From an uncultured Nitrososphaerota archaeon (GTDB lineage: Archaea; Thermoproteota; Nitrososphaeria; Nitrososphaerales; Gagatemarchaeaceae), in NCBI GenBank assembly GCA_963838925.1, contig CAWISW010000003.1, positions 288,001 through 352,000 on the forward strand: DNA of 64,000 bases. The letters run 5' to 3'. Positions 52,672-58,290 of this stretch are shown here, piece after piece. The translations under genes and the position numbers were made by a program. The notes beneath the pieces were generated by a model that ran no database searches, was not told the origin of the DNA, and worked only from the letters and a program-made list of their open reading frames with translations. Numbering within the stretch: position 1 is the first letter of the stretch; each line of letters starts with the position of its first letter.

Positions 52672-55530
52672 TTGGCGCAATACGAGAAGCACTGGCTCAA
52701 GGTGTGGAACGAGAAGCGGATCTTCGAGTCCGAGTCCGTCCCGGGGCGGAAGAAGGCCTTCGTCACCTTCCCCTTCGCGTACATGAACGGGCCGCTCCAC
52801 ATTGGGCACTGCTTCACGGCGACGCGCGTCGACATCTACGCGCGCTTCAAGAGGATGCAGGGCTTCAACGTCCTCTTCCCCTGGGCATGGCACTGGACGG
52901 GCGAGAGCATCCCCGGGATGAGCTACCGCCTCTCGCAGGGGGACGAGGGGGTGCGCAAGGCCTTCCTCGAGATCGACGGCGTCCCAGAGAAGGAGGTGGA
53001 GCGGTTCGTCGACCCCGAGTACCTCGCTTCCTACTACACGCGGGTGAGCCGCGAGGCCGTGAAGGACACGGGCTTCTCGATAGACTGGAGGCGCGAGTTC
53101 AGGACGGTCGACCCCGCGTTCAAGAAGTTCATCGACTGGCAGTACCTGAGGCTCCGCGAGCTGGGCTACGTCGTCCAGGGGACGCACCCGGTGGTCTGGT
53201 GCAGCCACGACGAGAGCCCCACGGGCGACCACGACAGGATGGAGGGAGAGGGCGTCACACCCGAGGAGTTCAACCTGATCAAGTTCGAGGTCGAAGAAGA
53301 AGACCTCGAGGGCGGGAAGAGGAAGTGGCTGGTCGCGGGCACCCTCCGCCCCGAGACCATCTTCGGGGCGACCAACGTCTGGGTCCATCCGCATGGGAAG
53401 TACGTCGAGGCCCAGGTCGACGGGGAGGCGTGGATAGTCAGCAGGTCGGCCGTGACGAAGCTCAAGGAGCAGCTCCACGACGCGAAGATCACCGACGAGT
53501 TCGACGGCTCTACGCTCCTAGGCCTGATGGTCAAGGCGCCCATAACGGGGAAGAGCCTCCCGGTCCTCCCCGCGACCTTCGTAGACGAGGAGCTCGTGAC
53601 GGGGGTGGTCTACAGCGTCCCTGCGCACGCGCCCTACGACTACATGGGGCTCCTCGACGTGCAGGAGGAGAGGGTGAAGGCTCCTCCCCCAGTGCTGCGC
53701 CTCGCCAGGGCGCTCAAGCCGATTTCGATAGTCTCCGTCCAAGGATACTCGGCGATCCCTGCGGAGGACGAGGTCAAGAAGCGCGGGATCAAGGACTCGA
53801 ACGACGCCAAGCTCGAGGACGCGACGGCCGAGGTCTACAAGGCGGAGTTCCACCGCGGCGTAATGAAGGAGAACTGCGACGGCTTCAAGGGTCTGAAGGT
53901 GAGCGACGCCAAGCCGAAGGTCATCGAGGAGATGAAGCGGAAAGGCCTCCTCTCGGTCATGCAGGAGCTCCCCCAGAGGGTCGTCTGCAAGTGCGGCACG
54001 AGGTGCTACGTCAAGATACTCGAGAACCAGTGGTTCCTGAACTACTCCGACCCAGCGTGGAAGGAGCGGACAAAGACCCTCATCAGGGCGGCCAACGTCT
54101 ATCCAGAGCAGTCGCTCGAGTGGTACTTCTCGACCATCGACTGGCTGCGCAACTGGCCGTGCGCGAGGAAGTCGGGGATGGGCACGAAGCTCCCCTGGGA
54201 CAAGGAGTGGATAGTCGAGACGCTCTCGGACTCCACCATCTACATGGCGTTCTACACGATATGCCAGTTCGTCAACTCGGAGAAGGTGAAGTTCGACCAG
54301 CTCCTCCCCGAGGTCTTCGACTACCTGCTCCTGGGGAAGGGCTCGGAGGCGCACGTCTCCAAGCTCTCCGGCATAGAGCTGAAGCTCCTGAAGGCCATGA
54401 GGAACGAGTTCACCTACTGGTACCCCGTCGACCTGAGGAACTCCGCCAAGGAGCTGATCCCCAACCACCTCACCTTCTACGCCTTCCACCACGTGGCGCT
54501 CTTCGAGCAGAAGTACTGGCCGCGGGGGTTCAGCGTCAACGGGATGATCCAGATAGAGGGCCAGAAGATGAGCAAGTCGAGGAACGTCTTCATCACGTGG
54601 AGGCACGCGCTCGAGCAGTACGGCGCGGACGGCCTGCGTGCCACCCTCGCCCTCGCCGCCGACGGTATGGACGACGCCGACTGGAAGGCAAAGAACGCGG
54701 AGGACATCAGCGCGAAGATAGACTCCCTCTTCCCGTTCATCGAGAAGGCGCTGGCATCCTCGACGGAGCGGCAGATCGAGCTGTCCGACCGCTGGCTGCT
54801 ATCCGTCATCCACGGTCGCATCGAGGTCGCGACCAAGTCTCTGGAGGAGATGAAGATCCGGAAGGCGCTCTCGGTGGCGCTTCTCGACGTCTGGAACGAC
54901 ATCCGCTGGTACCTGAGGAGGTCGGAGAAGCCGAGGCACGACACCCTCAAGCTGGTCTTCGAGACCTGGATACGGCTGGTCGCGCCCTTCATCCCGTTCG
55001 CCGCGGAGGAGCTCAACACCAGGATGGGGAACAAGGGGCTCATCGCGACGGCGGACTGGCCTTCTGTAGTGGAGTTCCCGCTGGACGAGGCGGCAGAGGT
55101 CTCCGAGCTGCTGGTCGCGAAGGTAATCGAGGACGCCAGGAACTTGCTCAAGATAATCAAGGAGCAGAAGACCCGCCTCACGATCTACGTCGCGTCCGAC
55201 ACGGCCTCTCAGTACTTCCTCGAGCTGGCGAACACGGACAAGGGAGAGAAGGGCAACAGGGGCGAGGTGATCAAGAAGTACGCCTCCTCGGGCATAAAGC
55301 CCGACAGGGTGATCAAGCTGCAATACGAGCTAGGCCAGGAGCTGGTCGCGAGGCTCACCTCGCTGGGCAAGTTCGACGAATTCGATGTCCTCAGCGACGC
55401 CGCGCCCTTCCTCTCCAACGAGATAGGCATCGAGGTCCGGGTCTTCAAGGCGGCGGGCAAGAAGGTCGAGGACCCCGCCAACAAGGCGAAGGACGCCCTC
55501 CCGTTCAAGCCCTCGTTCTATCTAGAATAA
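52672..55530 (+). CDS. leuS: Leucine--tRNA ligase (archaeal type)
   Basis: YMNGPLHIGH, TLRPETIFG, PAHAPYD, KMSKS. Confidence 0.97.
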   Translation: MAQYEKHWLKVWNEKRIFESESVPGRKKAFVTFPFAYMNGPLHIGHCFTATRVDIYARFKRMQGFNVLFPWAWHWTGESIPGMSYRLSQGDEGVRKAFLEIDGVPEKEVERFVDPEYLASYYTRVSREAVKDTGFSIDWRREFRTVDPAFKKFIDWQYLRLRELGYVVQGTHPVVWCSHDESPTGDHDRMEGEGVTPEEFNLIKFEVEEEDLEGGKRKWLVAGTLRPETIFGATNVWVHPHGKYVEAQVDGEAWIVSRSAVTKLKEQLHDAKITDEFDGSTLLGLMVKAPITGKSLPVLPATFVDEELVTGVVYSVPAHAPYDYMGLLDVQEERVKAPPPVLRLARALKPISIVSVQGYSAIPAEDEVKKRGIKDSNDAKLEDATAEVYKAEFHRGVMKENCDGFKGLKVSDAKPKVIEEMKRKGLLSVMQELPQRVVCKCGTRCYVKILENQWFLNYSDPAWKERTKTLIRAANVYPEQSLEWYFSTIDWLRNWPCARKSGMGTKLPWDKEWIVETLSDSTIYMAFYTICQFVNSEKVKFDQLLPEVFDYLLLGKGSEAHVSKLSGIELKLLKAMRNEFTYWYPVDLRNSAKELIPNHLTFYAFHHVALFEQKYWPRGFSVNGMIQIEGQKMSKSRNVFITWRHALEQYGADGLRATLALAADGMDDADWKAKNAEDISAKIDSLFPFIEKALASSTERQIELSDRWLLSVIHGRIEVATKSLEEMKIRKALSVALLDVWNDIRWYLRRSEKPRHDTLKLVFETWIRLVAPFIPFAAEELNTRMGNKGLIATADWPSVVEFPLDEAAEVSELLVAKVIEDARNLLKIIKEQKTRLTIYVASDTASQYFLELANTDKGEKGNRGEVIKKYASSGIKPDRVIKLQYELGQELVARLTSLGKFDEFDVLSDAAPFLSNEIGIEVRVFKAAGKKVEDPANKAKDALPFKPSFYLE

Positions 55531-55542
55531 GCGAAATGCCCA

Positions 55543-56241
55543 CTACGGCGAGGTGCCGGGGCCTACCTCTCCGAATCCAGGCATCTGTGTCCATGTTGTC
55601 AAGAAATCCCAGGTCTCATTTGAGATTACCCAACTCCCAGCGCTGATAACCCATTGCTGTTCGACAGACACTGTAGCGTTCGCACCGGCCCAGAACACGG
55701 TTCTGCCGCTGACGAAGAGGCTGAACGTCGCGTTGACGGTAGAGGGTCCAATGGATCTCGAACTGAGATTGGAGACAGTGATTGTGGGTGTTGGAACAAA
55801 ATCATGGAATCCATATGAATAGATGCTCCTAATGGAATCGATGCCGACGTAAGATCCCTTGTCGTTGTAAGGAGCGCCGCCGTATGACGTGATGTTCCCC
55901 GTCAAGGCCAATCTCGACGAATTGGTGTAGAATTGGAGGACCCCCGAGTAGTTCCCACTTCCTGCTGTGCCTCCAAGTTGCTGCATGCCTAGAACCAGCT
56001 GGCTGATGTCGGAATCTACCTGCAGGGCGTTCGAATCTTCGGAGGAAGTCGACAAAGCCGTCGTAGAGTGCGCCTCAGAACTTGTGATCTGAGGCTTGTT
56101 CAAGGCGTATTGGAAAGCGGCTACCAAGATGACTGCCGCTACCAGCACGGCTACCAAGACTCCAAGCCGAACTCTGCGTTGGCGCCAGGAGAAGTTAGAG
56201 CGTGGAGCGGGGCCAGCCAAGGCACCGGTCTTGATGCCCAA
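55543..56241 (-). CDS. Membrane-anchored secreted protein, NTF2/SnoaL-like
   Basis: N-terminal TM, Ser-rich linker, many N-x-S/T sites, W.I..E.W end; lower GC. Confidence 0.65.
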   Translation of the reverse strand: MGIKTGALAGPAPRSNFSWRQRRVRLGVLVAVLVAAVILVAAFQYALNKPQITSSEAHSTTALSTSSEDSNALQVDSDISQLVLGMQQLGGTAGSGNYSGVLQFYTNSSRLALTGNITSYGGAPYNDKGSYVGIDSIRSIYSYGFHDFVPTPTITVSNLSSRSIGPSTVNATFSLFVSGRTVFWAGANATVSVEQQWVISAGSWVISNETWDFLTTWTQMPGFGEVGPGTSP

Positions 56242-56330: not shown

Positions 56331-56480
56331 TCAGCCACCGATTCTGAACATTTTTGTCGAACAGACTGGGCAGGTGCCTTGCGTCGCCTTCTTCCCGTTC
56401 TTCATTACGATTCCTTTGGAATCTTTCATTTCTCTCTTGGCCTTGCAACGGACACAGTACGCAGTTACGGAGTTGGGCAT
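56331..56480 (-). CDS. DUF5679-type 49-aa basic Zn-binding microprotein (not in ORF track)
   Basis: MPNSVTAYCVRCKAKREMKDSKGIVMKNGKKATQGTCPVCSTKMFRIGG; TTATA 31 nt upstream. Confidence 0.85.
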   Translation of the reverse strand: MPNSVTAYCVRCKAKREMKDSKGIVMKNGKKATQGTCPVCSTKMFRIGG

Positions 56481-56561
56481 GGTTGCGAATTGTCTGGCTC
56501 AGGGGGTATAAGCGCGATTGCATCACACCACGTTGACAAAAAGGCAAACGGTTTCAGCCAC

Positions 56562-57143
56562 TCAGTCATCATCTGCGAACTCGCGAATCTTCTGCAGAGT
56601 TTGGTTTTCGTCTAGCAAGTCATGCTCCCAAATTATGAGAGTATCGTATCCAAATCGCCTGAAGTGTGCGACTCTCTCATCCGTCGTCTCCCGTGCTTTC
56701 ACAGTGTGCCAATAGTCCCCAAAAAGCTCTATGAGTTGCTTCTTGTCATTTGTGCTTACGAAGTCAGGACACTTTCCGCCAACTAGGAGTTCCCAGTTGC
56801 CGACATATCGAAATTGCAATCCATTTCTATTGATCAGGTCGATTAGTCTTAGTTCCAGCTTGTTCGGCTTCTTGTGCTCCCCGACCATCATCTTCCGTAG
56901 TTGCTCTTCCTTATGCAGTCTCCAGAACTCTTTGTGCTTTGGATTTGGTCTGCCTCTCTTAGTGTCGGCCATCTTTTTCGCATACACGGGGTTCTTCATA
57001 GGATTCCTGTCCCCCATCTTTGAAAGACTCGCCTTCCGCTTCCAATCTTCCGATTTTGGGATTCCTTTCAGTAACGCGCCATACTTGTTTCCTGGCTTGA
57101 ACCAGCCTTTCTTCCGTAGCGTCTCCTTCGAGTCTGGCAACAC
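56562..57143 (-). CDS. Free-standing homing-endonuclease-like protein (NUMOD3-like DNA-binding region + Vsr/DUF559-like nuclease)
   Basis: KSEDWKRKASLSKMG..NP; PNKLE, CPDF, IELFGDYWH, GY..LIIWE; markedly lower GC. Confidence 0.75.
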   Translation of the reverse strand: MLPDSKETLRKKGWFKPGNKYGALLKGIPKSEDWKRKASLSKMGDRNPMKNPVYAKKMADTKRGRPNPKHKEFWRLHKEEQLRKMMVGEHKKPNKLELRLIDLINRNGLQFRYVGNWELLVGGKCPDFVSTNDKKQLIELFGDYWHTVKARETTDERVAHFRRFGYDTLIIWEHDLLDENQTLQKIREFADDD

Positions 57144-57249
57144 GCAAGTAATTGGATTCGCCTAATATTCACCAACCGGGAACCAATTCAGAAATCGGAA
57201 GTAAACTCTTCACTCTTTAACTACCAATAACCACAGAGTTTCAAACCGA

Positions 57250-58290
57250 TTGGCAACGATCCTCTACGCCGTGAGCCCAATCGGCTTCGGGCACGCATCC
57301 CGCTCAGCGGCAATCGGCCTCAAGTTGAGGCAGAGGTCGCTCGAGCCGGAGTTCGCCACGGGGGGCCCCGCAGTCGAGTTCCTGAGGTCCTACGGCTTCA
57401 AGGTCCACGACGTCGTAAGCGAGCCAGTGCCCACCGAGTCCGGGGGAGAGATGAAGATGGCCGCTCTTTGGTATCTCAGGTACTGGTTCGGGTACAGGTC
57501 GACGAGCAGGAAGATGACAGAGCTTGTGTCAAGGCTCTCCCCCAACCTCATAGTCGGCGACGAGGAGTTCTCGTCCGTCTCGCTCGCGGTCGCGAGGGGG
57601 GTCCCGCACGCGATGATCTCCGACGAGCTCCAGCTCGGGTTCGCGAGAGGCGCAATCGCGAGGAGGGTGGAGGCAAGCGTGAGCGAGTGGTATTCCAACC
57701 TCCAGAGGAGCGTCTCCAACCTTCTGGTGCCCAGTTTCGGGACGGACAGCGGAAACATCCACTACATGACGCCCGTGACGAGGGAGGTAACAAAGACGCG
57801 CGACGAATCGAGGGACGAGCACGGCCTGCCCCTCGAATCTGGCGTCATCCTATTCAGCTCGAGCGGGACAGGAATCGGGAAGTTCCTCCTGAACAGGTCG
57901 CAGGAGGCCTTCGGGAAGGTTTGCACTCACTCCGAGGTGTTCGCGGCGTCCGGCACCGGAACGCCGACAACGAAAGCCCCCAACGTCCGCAATCTGGGCA
58001 TCGTCCGAGACAACCAGAACCTCGTATCGGCAGCCGACCTGGTAATCTCGACTGCAGGGAAGAGCACCATAGACGAAGCCGTCAGCAGCGGGACGCCGAT
58101 CATCGCGATTCCGATCAAGAACCACGTGGAACAGGAGAGGAACGCAGCCGAGCTCGGCTTCACCTTCGGCGACCTCGAAAGGCTGGCGGAGCTGATCGCG
58201 AAGCTTCTGGGGAAGAGGCGCGAGCCCGCGCACTATGCCGGTGCGCAGAGGACCGCCGACTATCTCGCTTCGCTCTTGCCCGCGAGCTAG
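57250..58290 (+). CDS. GT-B glycosyltransferase (MurG/GT28-like)
   Basis: GFGHASRS, DLVISTAGKSTIDEA, HVEQERNA. Confidence 0.88.
   Translation: MATILYAVSPIGFGHASRSAAIGLKLRQRSLEPEFATGGPAVEFLRSYGFKVHDVVSEPVPTESGGEMKMAALWYLRYWFGYRSTSRKMTELVSRLSPNLIVGDEEFSSVSLAVARGVPHAMISDELQLGFARGAIARRVEASVSEWYSNLQRSVSNLLVPSFGTDSGNIHYMTPVTREVTKTRDESRDEHGLPLESGVILFSSSGTGIGKFLLNRSQEAFGKVCTHSEVFAASGTGTPTTKAPNVRNLGIVRDNQNLVSAADLVISTAGKSTIDEAVSSGTPIIAIPIKNHVEQERNAAELGFTFGDLERLAELIAKLLGKRREPAHYAGAQRTADYLASLLPAS

What the first reader, a model, noticed from the sequence alone, without database searches (positions are those of the whole stretch)
56562..57249. Free-standing NUMOD3 + Vsr-like homing-endonuclease gene in a cellular archaeal chromosome
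The architecture (basic NUMOD3-like region, then PD...E.FGDYWH...GY..LIIWE) matches the EDxHD/Vsr-like homing-endonuclease class typified by phage I-Bth0305I, which normally sits in introns, inteins or viral genomes. Here it is intact, clearly more AT-rich than its neighbours, and lies between two divergent genes. I see no host intron, intein, integrase, transposase or clear terminal repeats. It is a candidate self-mobilising intergenic element or a domesticated nuclease, possibly moving with the DUF5679 gene (inference).
Basis: partly seen in the sequence, partly recalled or inferred. Interest (0 to 1): 0.7.

Follow-up and report, generated by a model that had tools for sequence, protein, structure and literature searches.

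The report
Free-standing homing-endonuclease gene in soil archaeon
A small, AT-rich gene for a Vsr-like (EDxHD-type) homing endonuclease, with its own promoter, sits between two host promoters in a soil thaumarchaeon, and sister genomes carry filled, empty or decayed versions of the same site, as expected of a selfish nuclease gene.

Summary
Window 56562-57143 (-) is an intact 193-aa ORF. Its GC is 48% and GC3 0.58, against 0.80-0.93 for host genes. It lies between a DUF5679 gene and a divergent glycosyltransferase gene (GT).

The AlphaFold model (pLDDT 85.9) matches the I-Bth0305I catalytic domain best, then E. coli Vsr. E97, D127 and H146 are invariant in 80 relatives. 45 of those 80 carry NUMOD3.

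The gene is single-copy in its genome and always sits just upstream of DUF5679. In 19 other genomes of the genus it is intact in 4, a stump in 1 and absent from 14. The closest relatives have a 320-390 bp leuS-GT interval with no nuclease. DUF5679 is a resident host gene, present in 17 of 19, so it is not cargo.

The nuclease is under strong purifying selection (dN/dS 0.05-0.12). Its presence is scattered on the GT tree: monophyly of carriers is rejected (AU p=1e-5). A second, distant Vsr-like gene is polymorphic at another site.

Best reading (0.6): a free-standing EDxHD homing-endonuclease gene that persists through a gain-decay-loss cycle. Cleavage, target and transfer are untested. It is a new member of a known kind.

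The parts
56562..57143 (-). Nuclease gene ('nuc'), 193 aa. The probable true start is TTG at 57140-57138.
   Evidence: ORF. The start is conserved as TTG in 5 of 6 clade-A alleles and as ATG in one. dN/dS is 0.05-0.12.
56916..57107 (-). Basic N-terminal region (aa ~13-76) with degenerate NUMOD3-like repeats. This is the presumed DNA-binding part.
   Evidence: Residues 26-42 align to a NUMOD3 motif that passes Pfam's cut-off in relative P0083. 45 of 80 relatives match PF07460. The window's own protein does not match PF07460 at E<=1. There is a weak TIGR01453 match over aa 31-112 (E 0.061).
56565..56876 (-). Vsr-like / EDxHD nuclease domain (aa 90-193). Candidate catalytic residues and their codons: E97 (56853-56855), D127 (56763-56765), H146 (56706-56708), D175 (56619-56621).
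   Evidence: AF2 per-block pLDDT is 85-98 over aa 91-190. Foldseek hits: 3r3p E 2.6e-4, TMt 0.73; 1vsr E 8.5e-4. E97, D127 and H146 are invariant, and position 175 is at least 90% Glu, with D in the window.
57162..57169 (-). TATA-like box (AATATTAG) of the nuclease gene, about 26 nt upstream of the start. This implies a leaderless transcript.
   Evidence: Sequence. The block ..AT(A/T)TTAGG.. is conserved in all 6 clade-A nuc-bearing alleles aligned. Promoter function is inferred.
56538..56542 (-). T5 tract about 20 nt after the nuclease stop codon, a presumed archaeal terminator. It is followed by a TTGTCAA block.
   Evidence: Sequence. GCC(T)TTTTGTCAA is conserved in the 6 nuc-bearing clade-A alleles. 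Terminator function is inferred.
56541..57212 (-). Approximate extent of the inserted cassette (promoter + ORF + terminator) relative to empty alleles.
   Evidence: Alignment with six empty alleles and five filled ones. The borders are good to about +/-15 nt. No terminal inverted repeats or target-site duplication were found.
56331..56480 (-). DUF5679 gene, a 49-aa zinc-ribbon-like protein. It is a resident host gene immediately downstream of nuc. Its TATA box lies at 56505-56512.
   Evidence: PF18930, E 5e-16. Present at this locus in 17 of 19 other genomes of the genus.
57250..58290 (+). Glycosyltransferase gene (GT), divergent from nuc. Its TATA-like box lies at 57216-57223.
   Evidence: Pfam Glyco_tran_28_C, E 6.3e-10. 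The promoter block CTTAA(T/C)TAC is shared with empty alleles.
55543..56241 (-). A 232-aa membrane-anchored protein ('mem232'). This is a separate insertion between the leuS and DUF5679 3' ends, seen only in this genome.
   Evidence: Absent from all other loci examined, including the closest one, L037. GC3 is 0.635. It belongs to a multi-copy family, with 6 matches in G000.
52672..55530 (+). leuS, the conserved flank used to define the locus.

Best explanation
The gene encodes a free-standing homing endonuclease of the Vsr-like 'EDxHD' class. A basic NUMOD3-type N-terminal region would bind a long DNA site. A C-terminal I-Bth0305I/Vsr-type nuclease domain (E97, D127, H146, D175) would cut it.

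The gene is a self-contained cassette (TATA box, leaderless ORF, oligo-T terminator) of about 670 bp. It lies between the promoters of the resident DUF5679 and glycosyltransferase genes of a Nitrososphaerales archaeon; named relatives include Ca. Gagatemarchaeum.

Proposed mechanism (inferred, not shown): when DNA from a carrier meets a nuclease-free allele, the enzyme cuts that allele in or near the DUF5679-GT intergenic region or the DUF5679 5' end. Repair from the carrier allele then copies in the cassette together with short flanks ('intronless homing'). Once fixed in a lineage the gene is dispensable, so it decays and is lost, which regenerates empty sites. That cycle would give the patchy genus-wide pattern seen here.
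For: Fold and motifs:
- The AF2 model has pLDDT 85.9.
- The best PDB match is the I-Bth0305I catalytic domain 3r3p (E 2.6e-4, TMt 0.73), followed by Vsr 1vsr/1cw0.
- P93, E97, G115, P126, D127, G142, H146 and W172 are invariant in 80 relatives.
- 45 of 80 relatives carry NUMOD3 and 37 of 80 carry DUF559.
- The EDxHD definition comes from passages of PMC3239194 and PMC2677866.

One site, three states:
- The gene is single-copy in its own genome.
- It lies directly upstream of DUF5679 in G000, in 4 of 19 other genomes of the genus, and in the 6 of the 7 close metagenome loci that reach that far.
- Six clade-A relatives keep DUF5679 and have only about 140 bp where G000 has 769 bp.
- Decayed copies are present: G010 (53 codons, catalytic H replaced), L158 (51 codons) and L039 (frameshift plus W145R).

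Phylogeny:
- G000 nests among nuclease-free species on the leuS tree (97/96 support).
- Monophyly of clade-A carriers is rejected on the GT tree (AU p=1.2e-5).
- The nuclease tree rejects a clade taken from the GT tree (p=0.0099).
- The flank next to the insert comes in two classes that track nuclease state. The spacing is 27 nt in 6 of 6 filled alleles and 47-49 nt in 6 of 6 empty ones. The 132 nt of DUF5679 do not reject a single origin of the filled haplotype (p=0.61).

Other support:
- Composition is foreign: GC3 0.58 against 0.80-0.93 for host genes.
- The gene is functional: dN/dS 0.05-0.12, lower than the neighbouring GT at 0.13-0.20.
- The wider family behaves like homing-endonuclease genes. 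It has 7928 50%-identity clusters at E<=1e-3. It occurs in many phyla. 223 relatives were found in viral contigs, up to three on one contig.
- A second, distant Vsr-like gene is filled in G018 and G022 and empty in G000 at the queC-aaRS site.
Against: - No cleavage, target site or transfer event has been observed.
- The gene is always at the same locus, and its tree keeps the deep clade A / clade B split of the host genus (100/100). It has therefore co-diverged with its hosts for a long time.
- For every comparable pair the nuclease dS (1.07-1.67) is at least as large as the GT dS (0.74-0.88). No recent transfer is visible, although codon bias in GT depresses its dS.
- Strong purifying selection is equally what a host-serving gene would show.
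- The incongruence tests rest on single short genes and on metagenome contigs that could be chimeric.
- The window's own protein does not reach Pfam thresholds for NUMOD3, Vsr or DUF559.
- The window's protein lacks about 36 N-terminal codons present in its closest relatives.
- No mechanism of DNA exchange between cells is known to me for this lineage.
Confidence: 0.6

Rival explanations
1. The gene is a domesticated or host-serving nuclease of homing-endonuclease ancestry, for example in repair, defence against foreign DNA, or regulation at the DUF5679/GT promoters. It would be inherited vertically at this locus since before the genus diversified and lost repeatedly where it is dispensable.
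For: - The locus is the same in every carrier.
- The nuclease tree keeps the host's deep split (100/100).
- dN/dS of 0.05-0.12 has been sustained over saturated dS.
- Identity between clades (70-72%) is in the range of the flanking housekeeping genes: leuS 73-78%, alaS 65-67%.
Against: - The closest sampled species lack the gene.
- Decayed copies exist.
- Carriers are interleaved with non-carriers on the GT tree (p=1.2e-5).
- All six empty clade-A alleles share one junction structure rather than different deletion scars.
- Codon usage has not been ameliorated despite the long residence.
- No partner gene is consistently linked: 73 of 80 metagenome loci of the family show none of the window's neighbour genes.
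- There is no PADLOC defence match other than a weak 'HEase' model (E 0.0059).
Confidence: 0.25
2. The gene is a relic. It is a former homing-endonuclease gene that is fixed in this lineage, no longer moves, and is intact only by chance or by recent arrival.
For: - The window's copy has lost about 36 N-terminal codons relative to five close alleles.
- Relatives show stumps and a frameshift.
- No recent transfer is visible.
Against: - All eight family-invariant residues are kept.
- The missing segment is a variable, low-complexity stretch upstream of the conserved core.
- dN/dS on pairs that include the window's copy is 0.056-0.118.
- The promoter and terminator blocks are conserved.
Confidence: 0.1
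3. The gene is a canonical Vsr very-short-patch repair endonuclease that nicks T:G mismatches created by deamination of 5-methylcytosine. This is how one public source names the relatives.
For: - JGI names for close relatives read 'G:T-mismatch repair DNA endonuclease'.
- There are weak Vsr HMM matches and a Vsr-like fold.
Against: - TIGR00632 scores 19.7 bits against a cut-off of 97.85. PF03852 scores 18.3 against 27.
- The structural match to 3r3p is better than to Vsr (TMt 0.73 vs 0.50; rmsd 3.2 vs 6.4 A).
- The N-terminal NUMOD3-type region is a homing-endonuclease module, not part of Vsr.
- None of the neighbouring ORFs scanned or named by similarity is a methyltransferase.
- The patchy presence does not fit a core repair gene.
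Confidence: 0.03

Closest known systems
I-Bth0305I, prototype of the EDxHD homing-endonuclease family (PDB 3R3P; PMC3239194, abstract and passages read)
   Same: It is the best structural match for the nuclease domain. It has the same domain order, with a NUMOD-type DNA-binding region N-terminal and a Vsr-like nuclease C-terminal. The conserved acidic and His residues come in the same order.
   Different: I-Bth0305I lies inside a group I intron of a phage recA gene. This gene is free-standing in an archaeal chromosome. The paper describes NUMOD2/HTH-like motifs, whereas this lineage has NUMOD3-type repeats. Sequence identity over the aligned structure is only 21-22%, and phmmer against PDB sequences finds nothing.
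Vsr-like putative homing endonucleases of 'fractured genes' and stand-alone inserts (Dassa et al. 2009, PMC2677866, abstract and passages read)
   Same: It is the same predicted family. Members occur as free-standing ORFs with their own control elements, inserted at conserved sites.
   Different: Those were mostly found in marine phage-like metagenome loci, between split-intein halves or inside genes. Here the insert is intergenic, between two promoters, in a cellular soil archaeon. Filled, empty and decayed alleles are defined across a genus.
E. coli Vsr (PDB 1VSR, 1CW0)
   Same: It has the same core fold, and the Asp and His line up (PD...F/YWH).
   Different: This protein fails the Vsr family HMM cut-offs. 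It carries an N-terminal NUMOD3-type region. No methyltransferase is adjacent. Presence is patchy.
Free-standing homing-endonuclease genes of T4-like phages (seg and mob genes; 'intronless homing'). Basis: my own knowledge plus the abstract of PMC2790892 as listed.
   Same: These are intergenic cassettes with their own expression signals. Cleavage occurs near, not at, the insertion point in genomes that lack the gene, and flanks are co-converted. This is the mechanism proposed here.
   Different: The nuclease families differ (GIY-YIG, HNH). Those genes spread during phage co-infection, whereas here the host is a cellular archaeon with no known route of DNA exchange.
Free-standing homing-endonuclease genes noted in Haloferax glycosylation islands (PMC5867893, two passages read)
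   Same: These are free-standing homing-endonuclease genes in archaeal chromosomes, beside glycosylation genes.
   Different: The phylum differs. The nuclease family was not checked by me. That paper raises homing only as a possibility and, in the passages read, does not define empty sites.

Membership tests
EDxHD (Vsr-like) homing endonucleases | C-terminal nuclease domain with the Vsr-type fold | tested here: met
   In the AF2 model, per-block pLDDT is 85-98 over aa 91-190. The Foldseek PDB top hits are 3r3p_B/A (E 2.6e-4 and 4.1e-4, TMt 0.73 and 0.72), then 1vsr, 1cw0 and 3hrl.
EDxHD (Vsr-like) homing endonucleases | Conserved composite motif E...D...xH...D of catalytic residues | tested here: met
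   E97, D127 and H146 (preceded by W145) are invariant in 80 relatives. Position 175 is acidic: D here, E in at least 90% of relatives. Equivalence to I-Bth0305I D196/H213/D222 is inferred from motif order. It was not checked residue by residue on a superposition.
EDxHD (Vsr-like) homing endonucleases | N-terminal NUMOD-type DNA-binding region | tested here: inconclusive
   The window's protein gives no PF07460 match at E<=1. However, 45 of 80 relatives do, and its residues 26-42 align with a NUMOD3 motif that passes threshold in P0083. The prototype is described with NUMOD2/HTH-like motifs.
EDxHD (Vsr-like) homing endonucleases | Site-specific double-strand cleavage of the allele that lacks the gene | not testable with these tools
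   This needs an in-vitro cleavage assay.
Homing-endonuclease genes in general | Presence/absence polymorphism at one homologous site, with decayed copies | tested here: met
   Of 19 other genomes of the genus, 4 are filled, 1 has a stump and 14 have no nuclease at the locus. Six of seven close metagenome loci are filled in the same context. Further decayed copies are L158 and L039.
Homing-endonuclease genes in general | Gene tree in conflict with host tree (horizontal spread) | tested here: inconclusive
   Carriers are not monophyletic on the GT tree (p=1.2e-5), and the nuclease tree rejects one clade taken from the GT tree (p=0.0099). However, the deep host split is kept (100/100) and no pair shows a nuclease dS below the GT dS.
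Vsr mismatch-repair endonuclease (TIGR00632 / PF03852) | Score above the family's curated cut-off | tested here: not met
   TIGR00632 scores 19.7 bits against 97.85. PF03852 scores 18.3 bits against 27.
Vsr mismatch-repair endonuclease (TIGR00632 / PF03852) | Genomic pairing with a C5 cytosine methyltransferase | tested here: not met
   The neighbours are alaS, leuS, a membrane protein, DUF5679, GT, a SLOG protein, a phosphoribosyltransferase-like ORF, an EamA-like ORF and an AlaX-like ORF. Names for the last three and for alaS are by my reading of the translations and by tblastn labels. The rest of the genome was not searched for a methyltransferase.
DUF559 (PF04480) | Score above gathering cut-off | tested here: not met
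   The score is 16.3 bits against 20.6. 37 of 80 relatives match at E<=0.01.
Transposon / insertion sequence | Transposase or integrase, terminal inverted repeats, target-site duplication | tested here: not met
   No such gene is present in the interval. Only short, imperfect two-copy repeats were found, and none brackets the insert.

The most novel reading that the evidence does not exclude
The nuclease is an actively homing element that has been kept functional across a genus of uncultivated soil Nitrososphaerales by repeated invasion of empty DUF5679-GT sites. The filled allele travels as a haplotype that includes the DUF5679 promoter and 5' end (a co-conversion tract). Its persistence would therefore be a direct genomic read-out of frequent homologous DNA exchange between cells of a lineage for which no gene-transfer mechanism is known. 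Together with the second polymorphic Vsr-like gene at queC-aaRS, it would show that NUMOD3-Vsr-like nucleases are a major, so far unrecognised class of free-standing homing elements of cellular archaeal chromosomes.
Probability: 0.3. Interest if true: 0.65.

Novelty: new member of a known kind. Interest (0 to 1): 0.45.

Why it matters
EDxHD/Vsr-like homing endonucleases have one characterised member, from a phage intron. Homing-endonuclease genes of archaea are known mainly from rRNA introns and inteins (my own knowledge).

This locus offers a cellular, intergenic, free-standing member with natural filled, empty and decayed alleles already in hand. The target can therefore be sought directly with synthetic substrates.

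If the gene homes, its long-term maintenance implies recurrent homologous recombination between cells of uncultivated acid-soil Thaumarchaeota. It would also give a marker for measuring that exchange.

The family is very large (7928 clusters at 50% identity). In the records seen it is unnamed, or named as Vsr repair enzyme by JGI; one NCBI record is named a NUMOD3 DNA-binding protein. A tested member would correct many annotations.

Tried and rejected
- **Sequence search of PDB with the protein:** no hit at E<=10. The link to I-Bth0305I came only from the fold search.
- **tblastn against GenBank phage records:** no match at E<=1e-5.
- **Public sequencing runs:** five soil-metagenome runs from two studies hold parts of the stretch, and no RNA holder is listed. 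Laying the contigs of four runs gave short pieces identical to the window and no joints across the nuclease. That says nothing about polymorphism or expression.
- **Homodimer prediction for the nuclease domain:** no verdict, score 0.08 against a mark of 0.42. It is not evidence either way.
- **Rfam at E<=1:** only two sub-threshold chance-level hits. No tRNA was found. No meaningful terminal repeats were found.
- **Inverted repeat in the empty alleles as a candidate operator or target:** an exact inverted repeat of 6 nt or more was found in only 3 of 6 alleles, so the idea was dropped.
- **Apparent similarity between the GT promoter region of G022 and the nuclease's N-terminal coding region:** E 0.037 in a tiny search. 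Treated as chance.
- **Possible short nuclease 3' remnant in G002, seen by eye:** not confirmed by tblastn.
- **A 120-aa low-GC ORF in G018 that looked HNH-like to me:** no Pfam match.
- **DUF5679 as part of the mobile unit:** rejected.
- **mem232 as part of the element:** rejected. It is absent from all other filled alleles and belongs to a separate multi-copy family.
- **Earlier findings of this scan:** none for this genome.
- **Supplementary files of the two endonuclease papers** (family member lists) were not consulted. They may list archaeal members that I did not see.
Full report
**What is there**

The minus strand of window 56562-57143 carries an intact 193-aa ORF. The remaining bases of the reported span, 57144-57249, are its upstream region, which ends at the start of a divergent glycosyltransferase gene (GT, 57250-58290; Pfam Glyco_tran_28_C, E 6.3e-10). 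Eighty-one bases downstream, on the same strand, lies a 49-aa gene (56331-56480) that is a true DUF5679 (PF18930, E 5e-16). After it come a 232-aa membrane-anchored protein (55543-56241, -) and the convergent leuS (52672-55530, +).

GC falls to 0.465-0.48 over the ORF, against 0.60-0.68 on either side. Third-position GC is 0.58, against 0.80-0.93 in seven neighbouring host genes. The 232-aa gene (GC3 0.635) and DUF5679 (0.62) are also atypical.

**What the protein is**

Family HMMs give only sub-threshold hints for the window's own protein:
- Pfam Vsr, E 0.0021, 18.3 bits against a cut-off of 27.
- DUF559, 16.3 bits against 20.6.
- PHROG 13076 'endonuclease', E 2.1e-5.
- TIGR00632 vsr, 19.7 bits against 97.85.
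- The group I intron endonuclease model TIGR01453 over aa 31-112, E 0.061.
- The PADLOC 'HEase' model, E 0.0059.

A full scan of 1.84 billion representative proteins found 7928 clusters at E<=1e-3 and 4985 at E<=1e-10. In an alignment of the window's protein with 79 of these relatives, P93, E97, G115, P126, D127, G142, H146 and W172 are invariant. Of the 80 sequences, 45 match NUMOD3, 37 match DUF559 and 4 match Vsr. Residues 26-42 of the window's protein align with a NUMOD3 motif that passes Pfam's threshold in relative P0083.

The AlphaFold model built on that alignment has mean pLDDT 85.9, with per-block values of 85-98 over residues 91-190. Its best PDB matches are the I-Bth0305I catalytic domain (3r3p; E 2.6e-4, TM 0.73 on the target, rmsd 3.2 A), then E. 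coli Vsr (1vsr, 1cw0), then a DUF559 protein (3hrl).

According to the passages I read in PMC3239194 and PMC2677866, the EDxHD family is defined by two features. One is a Vsr-like C-terminal domain with a conserved Glu, the metal-binding Asp, a His and a further acidic residue. The other is an N-terminal NUMOD-type region. The papers say the family occurs in introns, between split-intein halves and as stand-alone inserts. E97, D127, W145-H146 and D175 fit that motif. The mapping to the prototype's residues is by motif order, not by a checked superposition.

**Anatomy of the insert**

I aligned the window with five close filled alleles from metagenomes and six empty alleles from sister genomes. 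This shows a cassette of about 670 bp (roughly 56541-57212) with four parts:
- A conserved TATA-like block (AATATTAG, 57162-57169) lies about 26 nt before the start codon. The start is conserved as TTG at 57140, with ATG in one allele. This suggests a leaderless transcript.
- The ORF itself.
- A T5 tract (56538-56542) lies about 20 nt after the stop.
- A conserved TTGTCAA block follows the T5 tract.

The TATA boxes of DUF5679 (56505-56512) and of GT (57216-57223) lie just outside the cassette and are shared with empty alleles. Promoter and terminator functions are inferred from position and conservation.

No intron or ribozyme, tRNA or bracketing repeats were found. The window's copy lacks about 36 codons of a variable, low-complexity N-terminal stretch present in the five close alleles. 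The conserved core from GWFKPGNKYG onward is complete.

**Distribution**

The gene is single-copy in its own genome, which has 1.84 Mb in 3 contigs. I fetched this locus from 19 other genomes of the genus. The results are:
- Four genomes (G001, G011, G015, G021) have an intact orthologue at 70-72% identity, in each case directly upstream of DUF5679 and near leuS.
- One genome (G010) keeps only the last 53 codons, with the catalytic His replaced.
- Fourteen genomes show no nuclease at the locus.
- DUF5679 itself is present in 17 of the 19 genomes, so it is a resident host gene and not cargo.

The closest relatives by leuS are G012 (90% identity over the C-terminal part), G006, G020, G018, G022 and G008. 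G012, G006, G020, G022 and G008 have a leuS-GT interval of only 320-390 bp; in G018 it is 1.2 kb, because an extra low-GC stretch lies between leuS and DUF5679. All six have about 140 bp between DUF5679 and GT, where the window has 769 bp. G014 and G009 lack DUF5679 as well, with intervals of 19 and 46 bp.

A metagenome scan returned 439 confirmed relatives among 485 pattern-matching stretches, and the best 80 were kept.
- Seven of the 80 are close (68-89% identity). Six of those seven show the same neighbours, GT and/or DUF5679 and leuS, in the same order. The seventh ends inside the nuclease.
- The closest of these, L037 (leuS 92% identical to the window's), has the nuclease but not the 232-aa gene. 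That gene is therefore a separate insertion, seen only in this genome.
- The other 73 loci (30-50% identity) have none of these neighbours.
- Further decayed copies are L158 (51 codons next to DUF5679 and leuS) and L039 (a 1-nt frameshift plus W145R, which may be an assembly error).

**Evolutionary pattern**

On a leuS C-terminal tree, the window's genome nests with G012, G006 and G018 (support 97/96), all of which lack the nuclease.

On a GT protein tree of 21 sequences, clade-A carriers (G000, L035, L037, L039, L040) are interleaved with non-carriers. Forcing them into one clade costs 59.6 log-likelihood units (AU p=1.2e-5).

The nuclease tree of 12 DNA sequences has two features:
- It keeps the deep split of the genus (100/100). 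This means long co-divergence with the host and argues against recent spread between the two clades.
- It rejects the clade L035+L039+L040, which I had taken beforehand from the GT tree (p=0.0099).

The 132 alignable bases of DUF5679 do not reject a single origin of the filled haplotype (p=0.61). This is a weak test.

The flank next to the insert comes in two classes that track nuclease state exactly in clade A:
- The distance from the TTGTC block to the DUF5679 TATA box is 27 nt in 6 of 6 filled alleles and 47-49 nt in 6 of 6 empty ones.
- The empty alleles share a conserved TGTCTAATCT(A/G)(G/A)TG block.
- The first codons of DUF5679 also differ by class.

A single shared empty-site structure fits allele replacement by recombination better than independent deletions. 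By contrast, clade B shows heterogeneous stumps.

Pairwise dN/dS of the nuclease is 0.05-0.12 with dS above 1. This is lower than for the neighbouring GT (0.13-0.20). For comparable pairs the nuclease dS is not smaller than the GT dS, so no recent transfer is visible. Codon bias in GT depresses its dS and weakens this comparison.

**Wider family**

Titles of named records show close orthologues in 'Candidatus Gagatemarchaeum stordalenia', a 'Nitrososphaerales archaeon' and an 'uncultured Nitrososphaerota archaeon'. The host is therefore a Nitrososphaerales archaeon, probably of that genus. Gagatemarchaeaceae are the former group I.1c of acid soils (PMC10640624, abstract as listed).

More distant relatives (28-46% identity) occur in many lineages:
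- Archaea: Nanoarchaeota, Woesearchaeota, Pacearchaeota, Micrarchaeota, Asgard archaea, Methanosarcinales and Thermoplasmata.
- Bacteria: Patescibacteria, Chloroflexota, Caldisericales and Proteobacteria MAGs.

A further 223 confirmed relatives lie in IMG/VR viral contigs, at 47% identity or less, with up to three on one contig.

Within the genus, a second Vsr-like gene sits between queC and an aminoacyl-tRNA synthetase gene in G018 and G022, and next to queC in G040 of another family. It encodes 235-245 aa, is 34-39% identical over the nuclease domain, and has GC3 0.60-0.62. In the window's genome that site is empty, with queC followed directly by the synthetase gene.

**Interpretation**

The best-supported reading (0.6) is a free-standing EDxHD-class homing-endonuclease gene that persists in this genus through a cycle of invasion, decay and loss at one specific intergenic site.

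What is shown:
- the fold, the motifs and the cassette structure;
- the single site;
- filled, empty and decayed alleles;
- purifying selection and foreign composition;
- scatter of carriers on the host tree.

What is inferred:
- double-strand cleavage of the empty allele near the insertion point;
- repair from a filled allele with short co-converted flanks;
- a route by which DNA passes between cells.

The main rival (0.25) is a host-serving nuclease of homing-endonuclease ancestry that is inherited vertically and often lost. It is favoured by the constant locus, the preserved deep split and the strength of selection. A fixed relic (0.1) and a canonical Vsr repair enzyme (0.03) are less likely, for the reasons given under the rivals.

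**Novelty**

Vsr-like homing endonucleases, including stand-alone ones, are in print (PMC2677866, PMC3239194). Free-standing homing-endonuclease genes in an archaeal chromosome have been noted in Haloferax (PMC5867893, passages read).

My literature searches were 'I-Bth0305I' (12 papers), 'free-standing homing endonuclease' + 'archaea' (16 papers) and 'Vsr-like' + 'homing endonuclease' + 'archaea' from 2012 on (6 papers). Judged from titles and abstract starts only, they listed no paper on an EDxHD-class gene in an archaeal chromosome. Supplementary lists of family members were not available to me.

I therefore rate this as a new member of a known kind. It is of moderate interest because the natural allele series makes the target and the homing hypothesis directly testable.

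Noticed in passing
L007:1189-1893 (G022), L008:1135-1869 (G018), L006:318-1052 (G040); empty site in L256 (G000) between about 2244 and 2325: A second, distantly related Vsr-like nuclease gene is present elsewhere in the genus. It encodes 235-245 aa, has GC3 0.51-0.62 and is 34-39% identical to the window's nuclease over the catalytic domain. It lies between queC and an aminoacyl-tRNA synthetase gene in G022 and G018, and next to queC in G040, and it overlaps the queC 3' end. In the window's own genome queC is followed directly by the synthetase gene, so this site is also polymorphic.
   Followed up: partly
window 55543-56241 (-): A 232-aa protein with an N-terminal membrane anchor (GC3 0.635) is inserted between the convergent 3' ends of leuS and DUF5679 in this genome only. 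It belongs to a multi-copy family: 6 matches in G000, and matches in 10 of the 22 other genomes of the genus. All 8 clade-A genomes whose locus was examined have matches; the other two genomes with matches are G017 and G016. The nearest relative is 36% identical and lies elsewhere in G009.
   Followed up: partly
L021:1301-2209 (G018): In G018 the same leuS/DUF5679 3' junction holds about 900 bp of low-GC DNA (0.46-0.51) with a 120-aa Cys-rich ORF. The ORF has no Pfam match. This junction may be a second hot spot for insertions.
   Followed up: partly
L014, L016, L026-L033 (clade-B loci of the genus): In the other clade of the genus the leuS-GT interval is 2-6 kb. It holds a 540-546-aa ORF, a Y-family polymerase-like ORF (my reading of the IDMDSFYASAE motif), DUF5679, a 297-aa ORF and a 127-aa ORF. 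The interval is therefore structurally variable across the genus.
   Followed up: no
window 56331-56480 and its orthologues: DUF5679 orthologues in four nuclease-free genomes (G012, G006, G018, G008) sit on very long terminal branches (0.6-1.0 substitutions per site). Branches for alleles next to a nuclease are 0.33 or less. Nuclease-free G020 and G022 are also short. This could reflect escape from cleavage or relaxed constraint. The alignment is only 132 nt.
   Followed up: no
P0086: One family member is a 2724-aa protein in which the match to the window's nuclease covers residues 2340-2508. It may be an intein-borne or fused form. It was not examined.
   Followed up: no
G022 locus L022 and G010 locus L028: leuS is hit in two or three separate pieces in G022 and G010. 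This suggests frameshifts or assembly errors in these MAGs. For G022 it inflates the apparent interval.
   Followed up: no
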